Assembly: GCA_020051845.1 (NCBI GenBank)
Contig: JAGVQG010000056.1
Span: forward strand, 1 to 59,942
Source of the DNA: an archaeon
Lineage (GTDB): Archaea; Nanobdellota; Nanobdellia; Woesearchaeales; ARS49
Direction: 5' to 3'
Length of the DNA: 59,942 nt
Position 1 is the first letter of the stretch; each line of letters begins with the position of its first letter. The translations under genes were made by a program, and so were the position numbers. This document shows, piece by piece, positions 1,464 through 56,922 of this stretch. The notes beneath the pieces were generated by a model. The model was not told where the DNA came from and made no database searches. It worked only from the letters and a program-made list of their open reading frames with translations.

Positions 1464-2399
1464 ATGCCAGACCACATGTTGTATGTGAAAAAGTGCCCTG
1501 AATGCGGCAGCATCAACCTTTTCATCAATCGCGATAAAGGCGAGATCATCTGCAAGGACTGCGGTATCGTCGTCGAGGACAAGATGGTCGAGTTCGACCA
1601 GGAATGGCGCGACTTCGATTCTGACGGTGAAGCAGGCAACAGCGGGCGCAGGACAGGCGCTCCAATGACCTATACCCAATTCGACCGTGGTCTCGGCACC
1701 GAGGTCGGACAGAAAGCCGACCTTCTAGCCCTTGGATCAAAGGACCGCAACAAGTTCTTCCGCCTCAGGAAATGGCAATACAGGATCAGCACGGCCATCG
1801 AGCGCAACCTCAAGCTGGCTCTTGCCGAACTCAAACGCGTAAGCAGCTTCCTCAAGCTTCCAAGATCAGTCGAGGAAGAGGCTGCCATGATTTACACTCA
1901 AGCAGTACAGCGTGGCCTTGTAAGGGGCCGTTCAATGGAATCCGTCGTCTCTGGCGCGCTATACGCTGCCTGCAGGCGCCACGAGGTCCCAAGGACTCTG
2001 GACGAGCTCAGCGAAGCGTCAGGCATCGAGAAGAAGGAGATAGGACGCACATACCGGTTCGTCACGCGCGAGCTCGGCATCAAGATATTGCCAAGCAATC
2101 CTGCTGATTACATCGCACGCTTCGCGAGTTCATTGAAACTCGCGGCCGAGACACAATCAAAGGCCGTCGAGATCCTTGAGAAGGCGCAGAACAGCGAACT
2201 CACGAGCGGTCGCGGTCCGACAGGAATAGCCGCTGCATCGTTGTACGTGAGCGCCTTGATCCACGGCGAGAAGCGCACACAGCGCGAAGTCGCCGATGTC
2301 GCAGGCGTCACAGAAGTCACTATCAGAAACCGTTACAAGGAACTCCTTGAAAAGCTCAAGCTCGACAAGGAGATCAAGAAGCAGAAGAAGAAACGGTGA
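1464..2399 (+). CDS. tfb: transcription initiation factor IIB (TFB)
   Basis: N-terminal Zn ribbon CPECGS...CKDCG followed by two cyclin-like repeats. ATG 1464 is preferred over TTG 1416 because it follows an SD-like GGGGGAAGG. Confidence 0.93.
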   Translation: MPDHMLYVKKCPECGSINLFINRDKGEIICKDCGIVVEDKMVEFDQEWRDFDSDGEAGNSGRRTGAPMTYTQFDRGLGTEVGQKADLLALGSKDRNKFFRLRKWQYRISTAIERNLKLALAELKRVSSFLKLPRSVEEEAAMIYTQAVQRGLVRGRSMESVVSGALYAACRRHEVPRTLDELSEASGIEKKEIGRTYRFVTRELGIKILPSNPADYIARFASSLKLAAETQSKAVEILEKAQNSELTSGRGPTGIAAASLYVSALIHGEKRTQREVADVAGVTEVTIRNRYKELLEKLKLDKEIKKQKKKR

Positions 2400-2422
2400 A
2401 AGGGAGGTGTGGTGAGCACACA

Positions 2423-3229
2423 ATGAAATACGCGCTCATCACGGATATCCACGGGAATCTTGAAGCACTTGACGCAGTCCTGAAAGAGATAGAGACAGCA
2501 GGCATATCGCCCGAACACACAGGCTGTCTTGGTGATATGGTCGGCTACGGGCCTTACCCGAATGAATGCGTCGATAAAGTCAGGCGCAGGTGCGGTTTTG
2601 TCGTGCATGGCAACCATGAACTGTCCGTTGTGAGCGGGATTCCGAAGGCATACATCCACTCCAGTCTGTTTGAGATGATGAAGTGGACCAAGAAGAGAAT
2701 CACGCAGGAGAATCTTGAATGGATGGCCCAACTTCCTGCGCAGACACGATTCAGATATGGGATCGTTGCCCATGGCCAACCGATTTACGGCGACAAAATA
2801 TTCGATTACGAGCGCGTCAACAACTATGTCTTCATCGAGGAAGGTAAAGACGCGACATTTGTCATGTCGAGGGTTTTCCGTAACCTGAAGCACCACTCCA
2901 AGGAGACAGGCAACGGTTCCTATCTCGCGGCTTTCGGCCACACCCATGAAGGTTGGGCTATGATCGAGAATGACCGTTTCGTGAGGCTTGAACCTGATTT
3001 CAAGACGCGCAGATATGAGAACCCCGATAAGGCGTTGATGATCGCATCGGTCCCTTCTGTGGGCCTTCCGCGCGACGGCGACTGGCGCTCTGGCTGGCTC
3101 GAGGTCGATGCGCACGGCGTGACGCTGCACAGGACAGAGTATGATGTGCAGGCGACAATCGACGCCACGATACATGAAGCTGTAACTGACGGAGTCATGC
3201 CCTTACAGAAAGGAACGTTCAAAAGATGA
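2423..3229 (+). CDS. metallophosphoesterase (calcineurin-like, YfcE/MJ0936-type)
   Basis: Motifs DIHGN, GDMVGYGP and GNHE. GGGAGGTG lies upstream of ATG 2423. Confidence 0.8.
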   Translation: MKYALITDIHGNLEALDAVLKEIETAGISPEHTGCLGDMVGYGPYPNECVDKVRRRCGFVVHGNHELSVVSGIPKAYIHSSLFEMMKWTKKRITQENLEWMAQLPAQTRFRYGIVAHGQPIYGDKIFDYERVNNYVFIEEGKDATFVMSRVFRNLKHHSKETGNGSYLAAFGHTHEGWAMIENDRFVRLEPDFKTRRYENPDKALMIASVPSVGLPRDGDWRSGWLEVDAHGVTLHRTEYDVQATIDATIHEAVTDGVMPLQKGTFKR

Positions 3230-4349: not shown

Positions 4350-5522
4350 TCAGCCCAACAACGCGGAAATCGCGTCGAAGGTCTTCCTGTCGGGGAATCT
4401 GGAATAATTCTCGGCCCTACGCCGCAATGCCGTGTGGTCGATGAATATCTTCTTGCTCTCGAGCACTGACGCGAGTTGTGAAAGATATTGACAGCATTGC
4501 GTGACATTGTGCGGCCTTGGCGTGTGGTGGCCGCGTTCGAAGTCGAGCAACGTGACTTTTTTACCTACCACGATGTGTTTGTGCGGGTGGTGCATCTCCT
4601 CTTTCTGGATTCCGAGAGTGTCTAAGACGAGACATTGACGCAATACTTCGCGCAAAACTTCCAACGTCGCTTTTCTTGAAGCTCCAGGAAGCCAGTCCCT
4701 GATCAATTCGCCTTTGGCGAAATCGTAGCAAAGCACTTTCTCCGTCGAGAAGATAATCTTCGGCCCGATTCTCTTCTTGTTGATCATCCCCAACACGCGC
4801 GCCTCGTTCTCGATCCTGCCGATCGCTTCGCTTTTGGGGTTGTGGATCTTCAGCGCGACCTCTTTCTTTCCGATCTTCCCCTTGAATATCCATCCGCGTT
4901 TTCCTTTCGAGAAATAATCGATGTCGGTCACGCGTTTCCTTTCGGCGTCAAGTCGTGAGAAGGTCTTGCGCAGCCCGTAGACGTAATATGTCTCGAATGC
5001 GATGTGGTTCGTCGCTAGCATCGTCCAATCGAGAAGCGATCTTTCGATAAGTTCGTGTACTTTCGATTTGTCGGTGCGTGACGTGAACAACAAAAAGATG
5101 TTGCCTTTCGGCGTCAGGTGGCTCGGAGCCGTCTCAAGGAATCTTTCGATGGTCTCCCATCCTTTCTTTCCGCCTATTGTCGCAGGATCGTCAGGATAAC
5201 CATCCGCTGGCAGATAGGGTGGGTTGAAAAGAATGGTGTCGAACTTCGTTTTCGGCACCTTGGAAAAAAGATCGGATTGGATGAACTTGGCTTTCTTGTT
5301 GGTCTTTGTAATGGTGTCATTGCAGTGTCTCACAGCCAATGGGTTGATGTCGACGCCCAGCACGCTCTTTGCTTTTGCTTCAAGCGCTGCCTTGCTCTGT
5401 ATCCCTGACCCGCAACCCATGTCAAGCACCTTTCCAAGGGCTTTTTCCCGGACGACTGCAGCGAGCAAAAGTGAGTCTTCGAGCGGAGGGTAGACAGAGA
5501 CGGGCAAATCCTTGGTCACCAT
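4350..5522 (-). CDS. fusion protein: HemK/Mtq2-like SAM methyltransferase plus small Bud32/RIO-like (COG2112-type) kinase domain
   Basis: N-terminal half has VLDMGCGSGIQS (SAM motif I) and NPPYLP (motif IV). C-terminal half has GKRGWIFKG...EVALKI (P-loop/Lys) and KHIVVGKKVTLLDFERG (catalytic/DFE). ATG 5522 is preferred over the 5714 extension. Confidence 0.7.
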   Translation of the reverse strand: MVTKDLPVSVYPPLEDSLLLAAVVREKALGKVLDMGCGSGIQSKAALEAKAKSVLGVDINPLAVRHCNDTITKTNKKAKFIQSDLFSKVPKTKFDTILFNPPYLPADGYPDDPATIGGKKGWETIERFLETAPSHLTPKGNIFLLFTSRTDKSKVHELIERSLLDWTMLATNHIAFETYYVYGLRKTFSRLDAERKRVTDIDYFSKGKRGWIFKGKIGKKEVALKIHNPKSEAIGRIENEARVLGMINKKRIGPKIIFSTEKVLCYDFAKGELIRDWLPGASRKATLEVLREVLRQCLVLDTLGIQKEEMHHPHKHIVVGKKVTLLDFERGHHTPRPHNVTQCCQYLSQLASVLESKKIFIDHTALRRRAENYSRFPDRKTFDAISALLG

Positions 5523-5900
5523 GATATCAGCATACCTTTCCTCCTTTATAAATGCTGGGTGGCTAATTGAATTAGTGCCTGGGCAAAAGCAATCAAAATA
5601 CTCAACCCAAACACATATTCCCGAAAAACAACCATCCCTCATGAGTTTATCGACGGGACCATATTCTCCAGCAACGAAATATTTATATACTTGAGTCACC
5701 ATACTAATATACAATATAGTATACCAGCATAGGCAGACAGATAGTGCCTAATGCTTCAGACATTTGACCTCCTGAGCTTGTCGGGAAAAACGACGCGGGA
5801 AAAAGAGGCCTGGTCATCGATTGATCGGGTAATTGGCAATAGACAACTACGCCCGGCAGCTCTCCTTTTCAAATAATTCTGATAAAATCACATAAAAGAA

Positions 5901-12688: not shown

Positions 12689-12805
12689 AACCCACCGTCT
12701 TCCTCACGTATTCCTAGAGGAGGTCTTCGGTTTATATTGATTTCTCTTGTAGCGACTTGAGAGTAGTCAAACTATTCTTATAAATGGAGTAAGGATAGTG
12801 CCGAT

Positions 12806-21629: not shown

Positions 21630-21648
21630 TTGTTCTCCCTGAAACCCT

Positions 21649-21672
21649 AGTTATTAACAATAGTTAATAACT
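21649..21672. promoter_or_regulatory. perfect 10-bp inverted repeat (candidate operator) between TATA box and suf operon start
   Basis: AGTTATTAAC-AATA-GTTAATAACT. It is immediately flanked by the TATA-like GATATATAAATC (21673-21684) and lies 20 nt from ATG 21629. Confidence 0.6.
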
Positions 21673-21684
21673 GATATATAAATC
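21673..21684 (-). promoter_or_regulatory. TATA box of suf operon
   Basis: The minus-strand reading is GATTTATATATC, about 45-55 nt upstream of ATG 21629. Confidence 0.45.
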
Positions 21685-43708: not shown

Positions 43709-43804
43709 CACCCGCAGCCAATCTAACCTTTTAATCATCACTACTAAGTGATTAAAACACCGAAATGTTTAAATAGTAGTTATACCACTACACAGTAGAT
43801 ACAA

Positions 43805-44335
43805 ATGGGGGTTATCGTGAGAACAACTCTGTTCATCATCATCGCCTTCGCTTTTGGCATCGCCATCGGCGGAGTACTCCACGGAATGACCGTGGTCGAT
43901 GTTGCTGCAGCACCTTCTCCACAGCAACCCGCAAGCGTATCCACACTCGCGTTCACGTCCACTACGGACATGGCCGCGCCCAGCGACCATATCCCTGAGA
44001 GCGCCATCAGCGTCCTCTCGGACAAGGTCGTCATAGACCTGCCCGGCGCTGTCTGGGCGAAATTCACGCCTTCGGGTTCGATGAAACCGGTGTTCGACAC
44101 CGGCGCGAACGCAATCGAGGTCGTGCCTTCGTCCCCTGGACAGATCAACGTCGGCGACATCGTGTCGTACCAGAGCGACTGGATGGACACGCCGGTCATC
44201 CACCGCGTGATTCAGACAGGCACCGACTCGGAAGGATGGTACGCCGTGATGAAGGGCGACAACAACAGCACGCAGGATCCTGGCAAGGTCAGGTTCCCGC
44301 AGGTGCGTCGCGTCGTCGTCGCGGTCATTTACTGA
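43805..44335 (+). CDS. signal peptidase I, archaeal/eukaryotic Sec11 type
   Basis: N-terminal TM, SGSMKP (catalytic Ser), HRV, and the GDNN motif. Confidence 0.85.
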   Translation: MGVIVRTTLFIIIAFAFGIAIGGVLHGMTVVDVAAAPSPQQPASVSTLAFTSTTDMAAPSDHIPESAISVLSDKVVIDLPGAVWAKFTPSGSMKPVFDTGANAIEVVPSSPGQINVGDIVSYQSDWMDTPVIHRVIQTGTDSEGWYAVMKGDNNSTQDPGKVRFPQVRRVVVAVIY

Positions 44336-44352
44336 AACTCACCACACACCTC

Positions 44353-44650
44353 ACAACAAGACGTTTTGCGTTTTGTTGTATCCCATACTGGATCGCAAGA
44401 TCAAGTATGGGCTTATGCTCACCAAACACCTCTTTTCCTGCGTCGGCAGCCCTCACGGGCTGTCGGCGTAGGTTTTGATCTTGTGAGGTTAACTCACCAA
44501 ACACAACGGAAGCAAAGCTTCCGTGTGCACGGAACCAACGGTTCCGTTGCACAACGAAATGCAAAGCATTTCGTGTGCCAGAAACGCTCCGCGTTTCTCG
44601 GCACCTCTTTTCCTGCGTCGGCAGCCCTCACGGGCTGTCGGCGTAGGTTT
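44353..44650 (+). repeat. array of eight stable hairpins including a 49-nt perfect direct repeat (44427-44475 and 44602-44650)
   Basis: Hairpins paired by hand at 44353-44379, 44382-44411 (GCAA loop), 44437-44472, 44506-44524, 44525-44552, 44554-44574, 44575-44604 and 44612-44647. Confidence 0.75.
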
Positions 44651-44710
44651 ATTTTCAAACCATTACGAACCCTAGAAACCTTCTTATAGCCGCCATCTAG
44701 AACCTGCCGC

Positions 44711-45592
44711 ATGGCTGAGATTGATGACTGGAAAGAGGCTGGCAGAATAGCTGCCCAGGCACTTGATTTCGGCAAGAACCTGATCAAGCCAGGTTCCAAG
44801 ATTCTTGATGTATGCGAGAAAGTCGATGCGAAGATCCGCGAACTCGGTGCGCAGCCCGCTTTCCCGACTCAGATCAGCTGCGACCACGTTGCGGCACATT
44901 CATGTCCTTTGGATGATGATGCGACAATATTTGACAAGCAAGTCGCTTCTTTGGATGTGGGTGTTCATGTTAATGGCGCGATAGGCGACACTGCTCTGAC
45001 TGTCGACTTGAGCGGTCAGCATGCTGATCTTGTGAAAGCTTCGCAAGAAGCTGTCGATGCCGCGCTGAAGATCGTCAAGATAGGAGTCACGCTCGGTGAG
45101 ATCGGAAAGACCATCCAGGAAGTCATCACAAGCCACGGTTTCGCTCCCATCAGGAATCTCAGCGGCCATGGCCTCGACCGTTTCAACATCCACACAATCC
45201 CCACTGTCCCTAACATTGATACCAATGATTCAACAGAGCTAGAGGACGGCATGTTCATCGCCATCGAGCCGTTCGCCTCCACAGGCAGCGGTCTTGTGCA
45301 GGAATCCGGCGAACCTACTCTTTTCTCATTCGCAGAGATAAAAGGAATACGTTCACAATACGCACGCGACGTGATGCGAGAGGTCGAACAATACACCACG
45401 CTTCCTTTCACGACGCGCTGGGTCAGCAGGTCCCTGGGTATCGGCAAGACCAAGTTCGGACTGAGGGAGCTGATGCAATCCGGCGTCCTAGAGAGCTACC
45501 CGCCGCTCATTGATTCAAGAAAAGGCATCACGAGCCAGGCCGAGCATTCTGTCTACGTCTGCGACAAGCCGATTGTACTCACTCGATTGTGA
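44711..45592 (+). CDS. map: methionine aminopeptidase, type 2
   Basis: MAEIDDWKEAGRIAAQAL..., AFPTQISCDHVAAH, with the characteristic type-2 insertion. Confidence 0.92.
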   Translation: MAEIDDWKEAGRIAAQALDFGKNLIKPGSKILDVCEKVDAKIRELGAQPAFPTQISCDHVAAHSCPLDDDATIFDKQVASLDVGVHVNGAIGDTALTVDLSGQHADLVKASQEAVDAALKIVKIGVTLGEIGKTIQEVITSHGFAPIRNLSGHGLDRFNIHTIPTVPNIDTNDSTELEDGMFIAIEPFASTGSGLVQESGEPTLFSFAEIKGIRSQYARDVMREVEQYTTLPFTTRWVSRSLGIGKTKFGLRELMQSGVLESYPPLIDSRKGITSQAEHSVYVCDKPIVLTRL

Positions 45593-48581: not shown

Positions 48582-49652
48582 ATGGAATTCGTAGTGCAGA
48601 ACGCAATGCGAAGTAACAGCCGGCAGGACGACGACATGATGGTCGGTCAGGCCAACATCAAGGTCATCGGAGTCGGCGGTGGCGGTAACAACATGGTTAG
48701 CTGGCTCTACAAGAAGGGAATCAAGGGAGCCGAAGTCATCGCTGTCAACACTGACAAACAGCACCTGGACATTTCTGAATCTGATAAGAAGTTCCTAATC
48801 GGTCGCGACGTGACTCGCGGTCTCGGTTGCGGCGGTTTCCCACAGAAGGGAGCTGAAGCAGCACAGGAATCATTGATGGCGCTCAAGGAGACCTTGCGCG
48901 GTTCTGACATGGTCTTCGTGTGCGCAGGTATGGGCGGAGGCACAGGTACTGGCGCCGCGCCGGTTGTGGCAAGTGTGGCAAAGGAGATGGGTGCGATAGT
49001 CATCGGCACCGTCACCATGCCATTCAACATCGAACGCGCACGTTGCGACAAGGCCGAATACGGCCTGCAGCAATTGCGCCAGCAGAGCGACACAGTGGTC
49101 GTCATCGACAACAACCGCCTAGTGCAGATCGCAGGCAACCTGCCGGTCCAACAGGCGTTCGCTGTCGCCAACGAGCTCGTGTCGACGATGATCAAGGGAA
49201 TAGTCGAGACAATCGCCGTCCCCTCGCTCGTCAACCTCGACTACGCTGACGTCAAGGCGATCATGACCAACGGTGGCGTCGCAGCCATCGGTATCGGTTC
49301 GTCCGACACCAACAACCGCGTAGATGAAGCTGTCCGTGGCGCTCTCGCCAACCCCTTGCTCGAAGTGAGCTACAACGGAGCCACAGGCGCGCTTATCCAC
49401 GTCGAAGGCGGTCCTGACATGACTTTGGACGAGATCAACCGTGTCGGTGAACTCGTGACAGAGTCGATGGACGCTGACGCCAACGTCATCTGGGGCGCAC
49501 GTGTCTCGGAAGAGATGAAGGGCAAGCTGATGGTCATGACCATCATCACAGGCGTACAGAGCCCGTGGTTGCTCGGCAAAGGCGACAACCGCCAGAAGGT
49601 CCAGCAGTCCCGCAAGGTCATGAACGACGACCTCGGCATCGAGACGCTGTAA
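48582..49652 (+). CDS. ftsZ: cell division GTPase FtsZ (paralog B)
   Basis: GVGGGGNN, GMGGGTGTG and NLDYADVK. Confidence 0.95.
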   Translation: MEFVVQNAMRSNSRQDDDMMVGQANIKVIGVGGGGNNMVSWLYKKGIKGAEVIAVNTDKQHLDISESDKKFLIGRDVTRGLGCGGFPQKGAEAAQESLMALKETLRGSDMVFVCAGMGGGTGTGAAPVVASVAKEMGAIVIGTVTMPFNIERARCDKAEYGLQQLRQQSDTVVVIDNNRLVQIAGNLPVQQAFAVANELVSTMIKGIVETIAVPSLVNLDYADVKAIMTNGGVAAIGIGSSDTNNRVDEAVRGALANPLLEVSYNGATGALIHVEGGPDMTLDEINRVGELVTESMDADANVIWGARVSEEMKGKLMVMTIITGVQSPWLLGKGDNRQKVQQSRKVMNDDLGIETL

Positions 49653-56798: not shown

Positions 56799-56922
56799 AT
56801 TCGATTAGTGCTGTTGTTCGATTATTTAAGGCTTTCTATTATTAGTAACCTAATAGTAGTATCAATACGGCCACAATCTTTATAAAGAAAACCTTAAAGT
56901 CATTTAAGGTAGAGGGAGTGAA

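What the first reader, a model, noticed from the sequence alone, without database searches (positions are those of the whole stretch)
44353..44650. 375-nt intergenic region filled with eight stable hairpins, a 49-nt perfect repeat and structure-conserving tandem units
Almost every base between the signal peptidase and map genes is in a hairpin.
- H1 (44353-44379) has 11 bp.
- H2 (44382-44411) has 12 bp plus one mismatch and a GCAA tetraloop.
- H3 (44437-44472) and H8 (44612-44647) are 16-bp hairpins inside a 49-nt perfect direct repeat at 44427-44475 and 44602-44650.
- H4/H5 and H6/H7 form two tandem units.
Each unit consists of ACG..GC-AAA-GC..CGU followed by GUGCx-(7-8 bp)-triloop-(7-8 bp)-1-nt bulge-xGCAC. 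The inner stems differ in sequence, while the architecture, bulge side and closing pairs are the same. That is covariation within the locus and argues for selection on structure. The spacer CTCACCA(A/C)ACAC recurs three times. This resembles a REP/BIME-like or MITE-like array, or a multi-hairpin ncRNA or protein-binding platform. I do not recognise it as any known family.
Basis: seen in the sequence. Interest (0 to 1): 0.65.

Follow-up and report, generated by a model that had tools for sequence, protein, structure and literature searches.

The report
Conserved archaeal hairpin-array RNA with anti-Shine-Dalgarno-like linkers
The hairpin-packed spacer after a signal-peptidase gene is a real, previously undescribed structured RNA of DPANN archaea, in which variable hairpins hold out conserved single-stranded C/A-rich linkers that look like the ribosome's anti-Shine-Dalgarno tail; its function is inferred, not shown.

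Summary
The 375-nt spacer (44336-44710) contains eight stable hairpins, a 49-nt perfect repeat and a thrice-repeated spacer motif. It folds far better than shuffles (z = -15.3).

It is not unique sequence. Relatives with signal peptidases 40-65% identical carry homologous arrays of 150-680 nt directly after the same gene.

A core module is (CUCACCAMAC)ACCUC(C/U)UUU-CC[12-17 bp hairpin]GG-U-rich. It also occurs in about 15 more distant DPANN lineages, often as a stand-alone small-RNA gene with its own promoter.

Hairpin sequences drift with compensatory changes. The window-clade module stems have 24 G-U cells and no A-C cells, which points to a plus-strand RNA. The single-stranded linkers stay almost invariant.

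The element is not dispersed: it has two copies in 60 kb, both in this spacer. It is not coding and matches no Rfam family, so the REP/BIME and MITE readings fail.

Best reading: a modular noncoding RNA, here a 3'-UTR array, that displays several anti-Shine-Dalgarno-like motifs for pairing with ribosome-binding sites or for binding a protein. That mechanism is inferred. The main rival is a purely cis-acting terminator or stabiliser cassette.

The parts
43739..43798 (+). Promoter of the signal-peptidase/array transcription unit. It has an inverted repeat CACT-N4-AGTG (43739-43750), a BRE-like CCGAAA (43760-43765), the TATA box TTTAAATA (43768-43775), and a second inverted repeat CTAC-N3-GTAG (43788-43798) just before the ATG.
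   Evidence: Sequence. The same two-operator architecture is found at peptidase promoters in L002, L004, L127, L128 and L131, and at the stand-alone module-RNA promoters of the dnaG-linked clade. It is the only one of 24 strong TATA boxes in the window with this arrangement. Function is inferred.
43805..44335 (+). Signal peptidase I gene (S26B/SEC11-like, 176 aa). The array begins 3 nt after its stop codon.
   Evidence: SGSM...HRV...KGDNN motifs. SEC11A/C match with E = 1e-5. Homologs are named signal peptidase I by JGI. There is no Pfam hit at default thresholds.
44338..44352 (+). Linker motif copy 1, CUCACCACACACCUC, predicted single-stranded.
   Evidence: P(unpaired) = 0.92.
44353..44379 (+). 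H1, a 12-pair hairpin (including G-U) with a triloop. It is a window-specific insertion relative to L001.
44382..44411 (+). H2, with 8 + 4 bp, a 1x1 mismatch and a GCAA loop. It is homologous to the first hairpin of the L001 array (shared CCATAC/GTATGG base).
44417..44481 (+). Module copy A: linker CUCACCAAACACCUCUUUU (44418-44436), 16-bp hairpin H3 (44437-44472) and UUUU.
   Evidence: Covariance model R1 scores 63.5 bits, E = 6e-16. A terminator-like site is flagged. It includes the first arm of the 49-nt repeat, 44427-44475.
44483..44505 (+). Weak 5-bp hairpin (44483-44497) overlapping linker motif copy 3, CUCACCAAACACA (44493-44505).
44506..44552 (+). Double-hairpin unit B1. H4 is ACGGAAGC-AAA-GCUUCCGU. 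H5 is GUGCA-CGGAACC-AAC-GGUUCCG-U(bulge)-UGCAC.
   Evidence: The same architecture occurs in L001, L070, L127 and L128 with different inner stems. The bulged-hairpin pattern occurs only in these arrays in 0.9 Mb of held DNA.
44554..44604 (+). Double-hairpin unit B2. H6 is ACGAAAUGC-AAA-GCAUUUCGU. H7 is GUGCC-AGAAACGC-UCC-GCGUUUCU-C(bulge)-GGCAC.
44592..44656 (+). Module copy B (terminal): motif CACCUCUUUU (44602-44611), H8 (44612-44647) and U-tract UUUAUUUUC (44648-44656). This is the probable 3' end of the transcript.
   Evidence: R1 scores 51.4 bits, E = 1.4e-12. It includes the second arm of the 49-nt repeat, 44602-44650. A terminator-like site is flagged.
44674..44689 (+). Separate promoter of map (AGAAACCTTCTTATAG), about 27 nt upstream of the ATG at 44711, giving a leaderless mRNA. 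It is not part of the array and marks its downstream limit.
   Evidence: The same element lies upstream of map in L001, L002, L004 and L128.

Best explanation
The spacer encodes a lineage-specific structured noncoding RNA, read from the plus strand. Here it is most likely made as the 3' UTR of the signal-peptidase mRNA, because no promoter lies between the stop codon and the array.

The RNA is built from two kinds of repeated unit.
- Type A: a conserved single-stranded C/A-rich linker, CUCACCA(A/C)ACACCUC(C/U)UUU, followed by a 12-17 bp hairpin of free sequence and a U-rich tail.
- Type B: a pair of triloop hairpins, the second with a bulged U.

The hairpins act as stable, interchangeable insulators and 3'-end protectors. 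The functional surface is the linker, which is displayed two to five times per array. The linker contains UCACC and CACCUC(C/U)U, which is the sequence of the anti-Shine-Dalgarno tail of 16S rRNA. It is the complement of the AAAGAGGUG-type ribosome-binding sites used in these genomes.

The most likely mechanism is multivalent pairing with Shine-Dalgarno regions of operon-internal cistrons, giving translational repression or sequestration. Equivalently, the RNA could act as a decoy for a factor that reads this pyrimidine-rich motif. The overall layout is seed, U-rich stretch, terminator hairpin and U tail, as in Sm/Hfq-dependent small RNAs.

Arrays grow and shrink by unit duplication; the 49-nt perfect repeat is the latest such event.

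Shown: the structure, conservation, strand, non-mobility, non-coding nature and motif complementarity. Inferred: transcription, the binding partner and the regulatory outcome.
For: Structure:
- Plus-strand fold has z = -15.3.

Conservation:
- Homologous arrays follow orthologous peptidase genes (40-65% aa identity) in L001, L002, L004, L070, L127 and L128.
- The 21-nt linker is identical in the window, L001 and L002. In L127 and L128 it is CUCACCACACACCUCCUUUCC.

Covariation and strand:
- In window-clade module stems, 116 of 120 cells are paired, with 24 G-U and 0 A-C cells. Type B stems are 70/70 and 77/77 Watson-Crick, with 2-3 pair types per position.
- In 33 modules aligned to the model, 90% of cells are paired against 62.7% in shuffles. 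The covariation score is 0.739 against 0.234, and slid controls reach at most 55%.

Accessibility:
- Linkers are predicted unpaired at 0.65-0.86, against 0.27-0.56 for the rest of the array.

Independence from the gene:
- In other DPANN lineages the module is a stand-alone gene with BRE/TATA, no ORF and a U-tract. The minimal form is about 75 nt with two ACACCUC copies (L081, L091).

Specificity:
- Only two copies occur in 60 kb, so this is not the genome's generic terminator.

Complementarity:
- Ribosome-binding sites in held loci read AAAGAGGTG(A/T/C)-N3-7-ATG. Window 2402-2416, GGGAGGTGTGGTGAG, is one example.
- Many first genes are leaderless and internal genes use GGAGG or GGTG.

Precedent:
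- Archaeal small RNAs that mask ribosome-binding sites are known: sRNA41 and sRNA154 (PMC5867862).

Not coding:
- The arrays lack stop codons in all three plus-strand frames, and the motif copies fall in all three frames.
- The 107-aa ORF has no homolog among 1.84 billion representatives, apart from one marginal hit at E = 7e-4.
Against: - There are no expression data, so transcription, 3' ends and processing are assumed.
- No specific target is shown. The one extended complementary site, at 2402-2416, is a strong double Shine-Dalgarno sequence. Its only retrievable ortholog (L133) keeps just GGTGGTGAG, which is explained by Shine-Dalgarno function alone.
- Any C-rich motif will 'match' Shine-Dalgarno sequences, so complementarity is weak evidence.
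- The 16S rRNA 3' end of this lineage was not available for direct comparison.
- The distant modules were found with a pattern that required the 13-mer and GGTTTWT and were then filtered for hairpins. Part of the covariation signal is therefore ascertainment bias.
- The module always sits at the 3' end of a transcription unit and ends in a U-tract. This also fits a cis-acting terminator or stabiliser.
Confidence: 0.45

Rival explanations
1. The array is a purely cis-acting 3'-end cassette. The modules are specialised transcription terminators and 3'-exonuclease blocks that stabilise the peptidase mRNA and insulate it from the downstream genes. This is REP-like in function but not mobile. The conserved pyrimidine-rich linker would be part of the termination or 3'-end-formation signal, for example an unstructured C-rich, G-poor loading site for a termination or processing factor.
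For: - H3 and H8 are G+C-rich 16-bp stems followed by UUUU or UUUAUUUUC, and both are flagged as terminator-like.
- The module always lies at the end of a transcription unit: after the peptidase, after the ORF-less leader in the dnaG-linked clade, and possibly after other ORFs in L114 and L118.
- The terminal U-tract TTTATTWTC lies about 25-35 nt upstream of the next gene's ATG in L002 and L004, so it may double as that gene's TATA box.
Against: - It is not the genome's general terminator, because no other copy occurs in 60 kb with filters off.
- Internal modules end in UUCAUA rather than a U-tract (L127, L128, L004).
- A terminator needs one hairpin, not 5-15 with conserved spacers and bulged-U double hairpins.
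- Stand-alone promoter-driven versions without any ORF (L081, L091, L108 and others) have nothing to stabilise.
- Near-invariant linkers next to freely drifting stems point to sequence-specific recognition of the single strands.
Confidence: 0.27
2. The array is a protein sponge or assembly platform. The repeated single-stranded linkers, or the bulged-U hairpins, are binding sites for an RNA-binding protein. Candidates are an archaeal Sm-like protein on the U-rich stretch next to the hairpin, or a KH-domain factor that normally reads the 16S 3' tail. The array would titrate or scaffold that protein, as CsrB, RsmZ and CrcZ do in bacteria.
For: - The short motif occurs two to five times per array in predicted single-stranded context.
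- Hairpin architecture is conserved (5 bp, bulged U, 7-8 bp, triloop) while the sequence is free, which is typical of protein-recognised hairpins.
- The invariant UUUU is flanked by C residues directly 5' of the stem, and a U-tail follows it.
Against: - No candidate protein is linked to the locus.
- Neighbouring genes (peptidase, unknown proteins of about 300, 418 and 1068 aa) show no RNA-binding domains.
- The hypothesis cannot be tested with sequence alone.
Confidence: 0.18
3. The array is a cluster of mobile or dispersed repeat elements (REP/BIME, MITE), mobilised by a RAYT or transposase encoded elsewhere.
For: - The locus is a tandem cluster of palindromic units that includes a 49-nt perfect duplicate.
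- Array size varies between genomes from 150 to 680 nt.
Against: - No copy occurs outside this spacer in 60 kb.
- Related loci carry only one local cluster each.
- The genomic position after the same gene is conserved down to 40% protein identity.
- There are no terminal inverted repeats or target-site duplications.
- G-U asymmetry shows selection on RNA of one strand.
Confidence: 0.03
4. The region has a DNA-level function, or it encodes a small protein. DNA-level options are an array of transcription-factor or origin-recognition sites, or recombination sites. The candidate protein is the 107-aa ORF at 44366-44689.
For: - An ORF spans most of the spacer.
- Gene callers annotated a 224-aa 'gene' across the L128 array.
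- The repeated 15-21 nt motifs could be protein-binding DNA sites.
Against: - All three plus-strand frames are nearly free of stop codons, so openness is compositional. Motif copies fall in all three frames, and loop indels of 2 nt occur between orthologous units (AAC versus CAAAA).
- The ORF has no protein homologs.
- G-U pairs but no A-C pairs, and compensatory stem changes, are not expected for DNA sites.
- There is no Orc1/Cdc6 gene nearby and no GC-skew switch.
Confidence: 0.04

Closest known systems
Archaeal small RNAs that mask ribosome-binding sites (Methanosarcina mazei sRNA41, and loop 2 of sRNA154)
   Same: - An exposed pyrimidine-rich sequence complementary to Shine-Dalgarno sites.
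- A proposed action on operon-internal cistrons in organisms where first genes are often leaderless (PMC5867862; window data).
   Different: - There is no sequence or structural homology.
- Here the motif is single-stranded between hairpins, repeated two to five times, and in this clade fused to an mRNA 3' end.
- No target or effect has been demonstrated.
Bacterial sponge RNAs CsrB/RsmY/RsmZ and CrcZ (from general knowledge)
   Same: - Many copies of one short motif are presented by a scaffold of hairpins.
- Copy number varies between species.
- The scaffold sequence is free while the motif is fixed.
   Different: - Those motifs (GGA, or A-rich CA motifs) sit mostly in loops and bind known proteins (CsrA/RsmA, Hfq/Crc).
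- Here the motif is C/A/U-rich and lies in linkers.
- The organism is an archaeon without CsrA, and no partner is known.
REP/BIME elements of enterobacteria (from general knowledge)
   Same: - Clusters of stable palindromic units in intergenic regions after genes.
- They can protect upstream mRNA from 3' exonucleases.
   Different: - REPs are dispersed in hundreds of copies, carry a conserved 5' GTAG and are mobilised by RAYT transposases.
- This element is confined to one locus per 60 kb, syntenic across genomes, and has conserved spacers rather than conserved palindromes.
Canonical Hfq/Sm-dependent small-RNA architecture (seed, U-rich site, intrinsic terminator, U tail)
   Same: Each Type A module has exactly this order: a single-stranded conserved 'seed', UUUU, a G+C-rich hairpin and a U-rich tail.
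   Different: - It is arrayed in tandem.
- The host is archaeal, and involvement of an Sm-like protein is untested.
3' tail of 16S rRNA (anti-Shine-Dalgarno, ...GAUCACCUCCU-3'; established knowledge)
   Same: The linker variants together spell AUCACCUC (second modules of L108, L055 and L100) and CACCUCCU (L127, L128).
   Different: - In rRNA the tail follows helix 45 and is a free 3' end. Here the motif precedes a hairpin and is internal.
- The 16S sequence of this lineage was not available for a direct comparison.

Membership tests
REP/BIME | Many dispersed copies across the genome | tested here: not met
   The covariance model, with filters off, finds only the two copies in this spacer in 59,942 bp. 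Motif searches agree. Only one cluster is found per related locus. A whole genome was not available.
REP/BIME | A conserved palindrome sequence with a 5' GTAG, and an associated RAYT transposase | tested here: not met
   The palindromes differ in sequence between units and between genomes, and the spacers are what is conserved. No GTAG-palindrome consensus is present. A RAYT gene could not be searched for genome-wide.
MITE | Terminal inverted repeats with target-site duplication, and multiple copies at unrelated sites | tested here: not met
   No terminal inverted repeats or target-site duplications flank the array. The position after the orthologous peptidase gene is conserved down to 40% identity.
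CRISPR array | Regularly spaced identical repeats with unique non-palindromic spacers, and cas genes nearby | tested here: not met
   Motif spacing is irregular: 80 and 75 nt in the window, and 161, 127, 41 and 194 nt in L127. The variable parts are self-complementary. No cas domains are seen in neighbouring genes.
Intrinsic (hairpin plus U-tract) terminator | A G+C-rich stem-loop immediately followed by a U-run at the end of a transcription unit | tested here: met
   H3 is followed by UUUU and H8 by UUUAUUUUC, and both are flagged. This holds only for the Type A modules. Internal modules of L127 and L128 end in UUCAUA. Whether archaeal RNA polymerase stops here is untested.
Anti-RBS base-pairing small RNA (sRNA41/sRNA154 type) | An accessible sequence complementary to the ribosome-binding sites of targets | tested here: met
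   The linker ACACCUCUUUU is the complement of the AAAGAGGTGT-type ribosome-binding sites in held loci and of window 2402-2416. It is predicted unpaired.
Anti-RBS base-pairing small RNA (sRNA41/sRNA154 type) | An independent transcript and demonstrated repression of a target | not testable with these tools
   Its own promoter is seen only in the dnaG-linked clade. There are no expression or target data. The target-conservation test was inconclusive.
Protein-sponge RNA (CsrB/RsmZ/CrcZ type) | Multiple copies of a short binding motif on a hairpin scaffold | tested here: met
   There are two to five CCUC(C/U)UUU copies and three to five CUCACC copies per array.
Protein-sponge RNA (CsrB/RsmZ/CrcZ type) | A known cognate RNA-binding protein that is titrated | not testable with these tools
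   No candidate was identified in the neighbourhood.
Any Rfam 15 family | A score at or above the family's gathering threshold | tested here: not met
   No hit in the window apart from two tRNAs. Nothing on 20 related loci at the module positions. A permissive scan of the spacer gives only chance-level hits with E > 1.
H/ACA or C/D box small RNAs | A pseudouridylation pocket with K-turn and ACA box, or C/D boxes (RUGAUGA/CUGA) | tested here: not met
   The hairpins are continuous, with no internal pocket or tandem G-A pairs, and no boxes are present in the array.

The most novel reading that the evidence does not exclude
DPANN archaea carry a dedicated RNA that mimics the 16S rRNA anti-Shine-Dalgarno tail. 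It is co-regulated with the signal peptidase through a shared two-operator promoter. In this clade it has been amplified into a multivalent array. It acts as a decoy, either soaking up Shine-Dalgarno-led (operon-internal) cistrons or titrating a factor that reads the 16S 3' tail. It would thereby shift translation between leaderless and Shine-Dalgarno-dependent genes genome-wide.
Probability: 0.15. Interest if true: 0.85.

Novelty: new variant of a known kind. Interest (0 to 1): 0.6.

Why it matters
Almost nothing is known about RNA-based regulation in DPANN archaea. They are uncultured or hard to culture, and their tiny genomes keep little non-essential DNA.

A spacer of 150-680 nt that is kept after the same gene across lineages with only 40-65% protein identity implies strong selection. 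So do its invariant single-stranded motifs and covarying hairpins.

If the linkers really act as anti-Shine-Dalgarno mimics, this would be a compact way to bias translation between leaderless and Shine-Dalgarno-led genes. It would be the first multivalent 'sponge-like' RNA described in Archaea.

At a minimum, the finding gives:
- a new RNA family for Rfam-type annotation;
- an explanation for spurious ORF calls over these arrays, such as the 224-aa 'gene' in L128;
- a candidate regulon marker in the shared two-operator promoter.

Tried and rejected
- **Exact-protein look-ups.** Look-ups for map and the peptidase found no contig.
- **Genome-collection scan.** It returned 29 bacterial hits, all inside a conserved membrane-protein coding region on the opposite strand and unrelated to this element. 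The pattern was too specific and the scan was wasted.
- **Viral-contig scan.** It gave 11 hits, none with a hairpin, so all are chance matches.
- **Metagenome scan.** It was capped at 80 loci. About 55 were chance matches to the pattern. Three G+C-rich bacterial contigs (L048, L098, L104) were chance 13-mers in front of ordinary terminators. L114, which follows a ParB-like ORF, is of uncertain membership.
- **Rfam.** Nothing was found at gathering or permissive thresholds.
- **Specific trans target.** The site at 2402-2416, upstream of a metallophosphoesterase gene, was tested by looking for orthologs. The best is only 41% identical, and its upstream region keeps only GGTGGTGAG. This is explained by Shine-Dalgarno function, so no specific target can be claimed.
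- **Coding hypothesis.** Rejected.
- **Other readings.** CRISPR, integron attC, H/ACA, C/D, bulge-helix-bulge and replication-origin readings were considered and rejected on anatomy.
- **dnaG in the window.** A search found none, so linkage to dnaG in this genome is unknown.
- **Neighbouring proteins.** PDB and Pfam searches of the 418-aa, 1068-aa and 301-aa proteins gave no functional clue.
- **Literature.** Searches found no description of such an element in DPANN archaea.
Full report
**1. What is in the window**

The window comes from a DPANN archaeon. The best named relatives of its type II methionine aminopeptidase are Woesearchaeota and Nanoarchaeota MAGs. Promoters are of the BRE/TATA type, and many genes are leaderless.

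The 375-nt spacer at 44336-44710 lies between two genes:
- a 176-aa signal peptidase I, which is SEC11-like (E = 1e-5 to PDB 7p2q) and whose homologs JGI calls signal peptidase I;
- map, which carries Peptidase_M24.

The plus-strand RNA folds at -168.8 kcal/mol, against -98.6 +/- 4.6 for shuffles (z = -15.3). The minus strand is much weaker, at z = -6.4. This is because H1, H3 and H8 contain G-U pairs.

**2. It is conserved, but not where one first looks**

In the closest relatives (map 78-81% identical), the spacer upstream of map is only 23-80 nt. The homologous hairpin array sits elsewhere, directly after the orthologous signal-peptidase gene.

With further loci, the array is found after the peptidase gene in L001, L002, L004, L070, L127 and L128. 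Those peptidases are 40-65% identical to the window's. Array length ranges from 153 to 680 nt.

The synteny is:
- a large protein of about 1070 aa on the other strand;
- a protein of about 300-400 aa;
- the peptidase;
- the array;
- 0-3 fast-evolving genes of 160-186 aa;
- map.

The window simply lacks the small genes, so here the array abuts the map promoter (AGAAACCTTCTTATAG, 44674-44689, also conserved upstream of map in relatives).

**3. Anatomy**

Local folding resolves all arrays into two unit types.

Type A consists of:
- the linker CUCACCA(A/C)ACACCUC(C/U)UUU;
- CC[12-17 bp hairpin]GG;
- UUCAUA when internal, or UUUAUU(U/A)UC when terminal.

Type B consists of:
- (C)ACAC(A);
- an 8-10 bp hairpin with a triloop;
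- GUGCA, 7-8 bp, a triloop, 7-8 bp, a bulged U and UGCAC.

The window array reads: linker 1, H1, H2, linker 2, H3, a weak hairpin overlapping linker 3, B1 (H4, H5), B2 (H6, H7), motif 4, H8 and a U-tract. Compared with L001, H1 is an insertion. The H3 module is a fresh duplicate of the terminal module, which accounts for the 49-nt perfect repeat. L001 carries a truncated duplicate at the corresponding place. Arrays therefore evolve by unit duplication and loss.

**4. Selection acts on an RNA of the plus strand**

- In the ten Type A stems of the window clade, which were collected by synteny and not by structure, 116 of 120 cells pair. There are 24 G-U cells and no A-C cell.
- Type B stems are 70/70 and 77/77 Watson-Crick, with two to three pair types at most positions.
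- An alignment of 33 modules fitted to a covariance model gives 90% paired cells against 62.7% in shuffles. The covariation score is 0.739 against 0.234. Pairing falls to 55% or less when partners are slid.
- Caveat: the distant members were selected for having a hairpin, and the alignment was fitted to the model.
- The bulged-U hairpin pattern occurs nowhere else in 0.9 Mb of held DNA.

**5. The conserved part is single-stranded**

While stems drift, the 21-nt linker is identical in the window, L001 and L002. In L127 and L128 it reads CUCACCACACACCUCCUUUCC. Partition-function folding puts the linker positions at P(unpaired) 0.65-0.86, against 0.27-0.56 for the rest of the array.

**6. A wider family**

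About 22 have a strong hairpin in the gap. These share features that the pattern did not ask for:
- a conserved UUAUCUAA before the motif;
- a BRE/TATA promoter 40-125 nt upstream;
- a second, and sometimes a third, module downstream, with (A)UCACCUCUUUUUCC or CCCCCUUUUCC;
- in many cases, a position upstream of a Toprim/DnaG-type gene.

These are archaeal contigs. Their promoters are BRE/TATA-type, and L055 also carries an archaeal RNase P RNA.

In L081 and L091 the whole unit is only about 75 nt. It runs from the TATA box through AGUAACAAACACCUCaAAACACCUCUUUUCC and a hairpin to U6. There is no ORF. The module is therefore a functional RNA in its own right and not an appendage of the peptidase gene.

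**7. Not mobile, not generic, not coding, not known**

- Not mobile and not generic: model R1, with filters off, finds only the two copies in this spacer in the whole window (63.5 and 51.4 bits; the next best hit scores 9.5 bits). Related loci carry only tandem local copies. It is neither a dispersed repeat nor the genome's ordinary terminator.
- Not coding: the 107-aa ORF across the spacer is a compositional artefact. All three plus-strand frames are almost free of stop codons in every array. Motif copies fall in all three frames, and orthologous loops differ by 2 nt. The ORF has no homolog among 1.84 billion representative proteins, apart from one marginal hit.
- Not known: Rfam 15 gives nothing, and literature searches found no description.

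**8. What the linker looks like**

The variants spell UCACC, CACCUCCU (L127, L128) and AUCACCUC (second modules of L108, L055 and L100). This is the sequence of the universal 3' tail of 16S rRNA, GAUCACCUCCU (established knowledge). I could not retrieve this lineage's own 16S sequence.

Ribosome-binding sites in the held loci read AAAGAGGTG(A/T/C)-N3-7-ATG, the exact complement of ACACCUCUUU. Window 2402-2416, GGGAGGTGTGGTGAG, lies upstream of a metallophosphoesterase gene. It matches the complement of linker 1 with a 2-nt bulge.

I could not show that this site is a specific target. The only retrievable ortholog is 41% identical, and its upstream region keeps GGTGGTGAG, which Shine-Dalgarno function alone explains.

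In the stand-alone RNAs, a purine-rich GAGGGGUG element near the 5' end can pair with the motif. This suggests a possible self-masked state.

**9. Mechanism**

Each Type A module has the classic order of a base-pairing small RNA: an accessible seed, a U-rich stretch, a G+C-rich terminator-like hairpin and a U tail.

My best reading is a modular noncoding RNA that presents several anti-Shine-Dalgarno-like seeds. In this clade it is amplified and fused to the peptidase mRNA 3' end. It would act by pairing with Shine-Dalgarno regions, as the archaeal sRNA41 and sRNA154 do (PMC5867862), or as a decoy for a protein that reads this motif.

The steps of this argument stand as follows:
- Shown: the structure, the strand, the conservation, the modularity, the single-locus distribution and the complementarity.
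- Inferred: transcription, the binding partner and the regulatory effect.

The main rival is a purely cis-acting terminator or stabiliser cassette. It explains the position at the 3' end and the U-tract. It does not explain the invariant linkers, the multiplicity, the internal modules without U-tracts, the ORF-less stand-alone genes, or the absence of the module from other gene ends.

**10. Regulatory context, seen in passing**

The peptidase promoter carries two short inverted repeats: CACT-N4-AGTG upstream of the BRE, and CTAC-N3-GTAG between the TATA box and the ATG.

The same arrangement is found at:
- the peptidase promoters of five relatives, including L131, which has no array;
- the promoters of the stand-alone module RNAs.

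It is unique among the 24 strong TATA boxes in the window. This suggests that the peptidase and the RNA belong to one regulon.

**11. Verdict**

The feature is real and conserved, and as far as these tools show it is undescribed. It is a structured-RNA family of DPANN archaea. The REP/MITE interpretation is rejected and the 'multi-hairpin ncRNA or binding platform' interpretation is upheld. The anti-Shine-Dalgarno-mimic mechanism is a reasoned hypothesis that needs transcript and binding data.

Noticed in passing
window 43739-43798; also L002, L004, L127, L128 and L131 upstream of the peptidase gene, and L108, L092, L055, L050, L115, L082, L100, L083, L081, L091 and L113 upstream of the module RNA: The promoter has two operators: an inverted repeat (C)CACT-N4-6-AGTG(A) about 20-30 nt upstream of the TATA box, and a second TACTAC...GTAGTAA-type repeat between the TATA box and the start. 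It is shared by signal-peptidase genes and by the stand-alone module RNAs. It is unique among 24 strong TATA boxes in the window. It suggests a common, unidentified transcription factor and regulon.
   Followed up: partly
L001 853-2485, L002 2715-3275, L004 2417-3543, L127 5203 onward, L128 4811-5287: A family of fast-evolving paralogous genes of 160-186 aa lies between the array and map in relatives. They are 24-30% identical to each other, share a (V/L)TMP motif near the C-terminus, and have no Pfam hit and no signal peptide. The family is absent from the window (no tblastn hit).
   Followed up: partly
window 2399-2425: An unusually long double Shine-Dalgarno-like element, AAAGGGAGGTGTGGTGAG, is followed by CACACA and the ATG (2423) of a metallophosphoesterase gene. 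That gene lies directly after a TFB (TFIIB) gene at 1416-2399. The TFB-phosphoesterase pair is conserved in L133.
   Followed up: partly
L108 3285-3370 (similar sequence in L092): A possible second small structured RNA has its own TATA box, between the module RNAs and dnaG. Its sequence runs GCCCGUCACGAGAGUACCUGAUGGAG...GUGUAACGGGC, and the ends are complementary. It has no Rfam hit.
   Followed up: no
L128 4613-5287 (also L129 and L130): The public gene call of 224 aa starts inside the hairpin array. The real gene most likely starts at the ATG at 4811. Arrays of this kind therefore generate over-extended or spurious ORF calls.
   Followed up: partly
L118 (module after an HNH-like zinc-finger ORF); L114 (after a ParB-like ORF): Module-like 3' cassettes lie directly after ORFs typical of mobile elements. 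L118 keeps the upstream UCAUCUA context and looks genuine. L114 may be a chance 13-mer in front of an ordinary terminator.
   Followed up: no
window 49280-49320 (minus-strand RNA), inside the ftsZ gene (48582-49652): An 18-pair hairpin (with G-U pairs) lies on the minus strand within coding sequence. It is the longest hairpin in the window outside the array. It may be chance or an antisense feature.
   Followed up: no
window 5699-5732, 12771-12799, 21648-21673 and 56836-56859: A/T-rich inverted repeats of 10-14 bp lie at or next to TATA boxes (for example CTATTATTAGTAACCTAATAGTAG). Some have TACTA/TAGTA half-sites that resemble the peptidase-promoter operators. They are possible further operator sites.
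   Followed up: no
L007-L035 (genome-contig hits): The 19-mer CACCAAACACCTCTTTTCC is conserved in Bacteroidota, Pseudomonas and other bacteria. There it is the reverse complement of a coding segment (GKEVFGG...) of a conserved membrane protein. It is unrelated to the archaeal element.
   Followed up: yes
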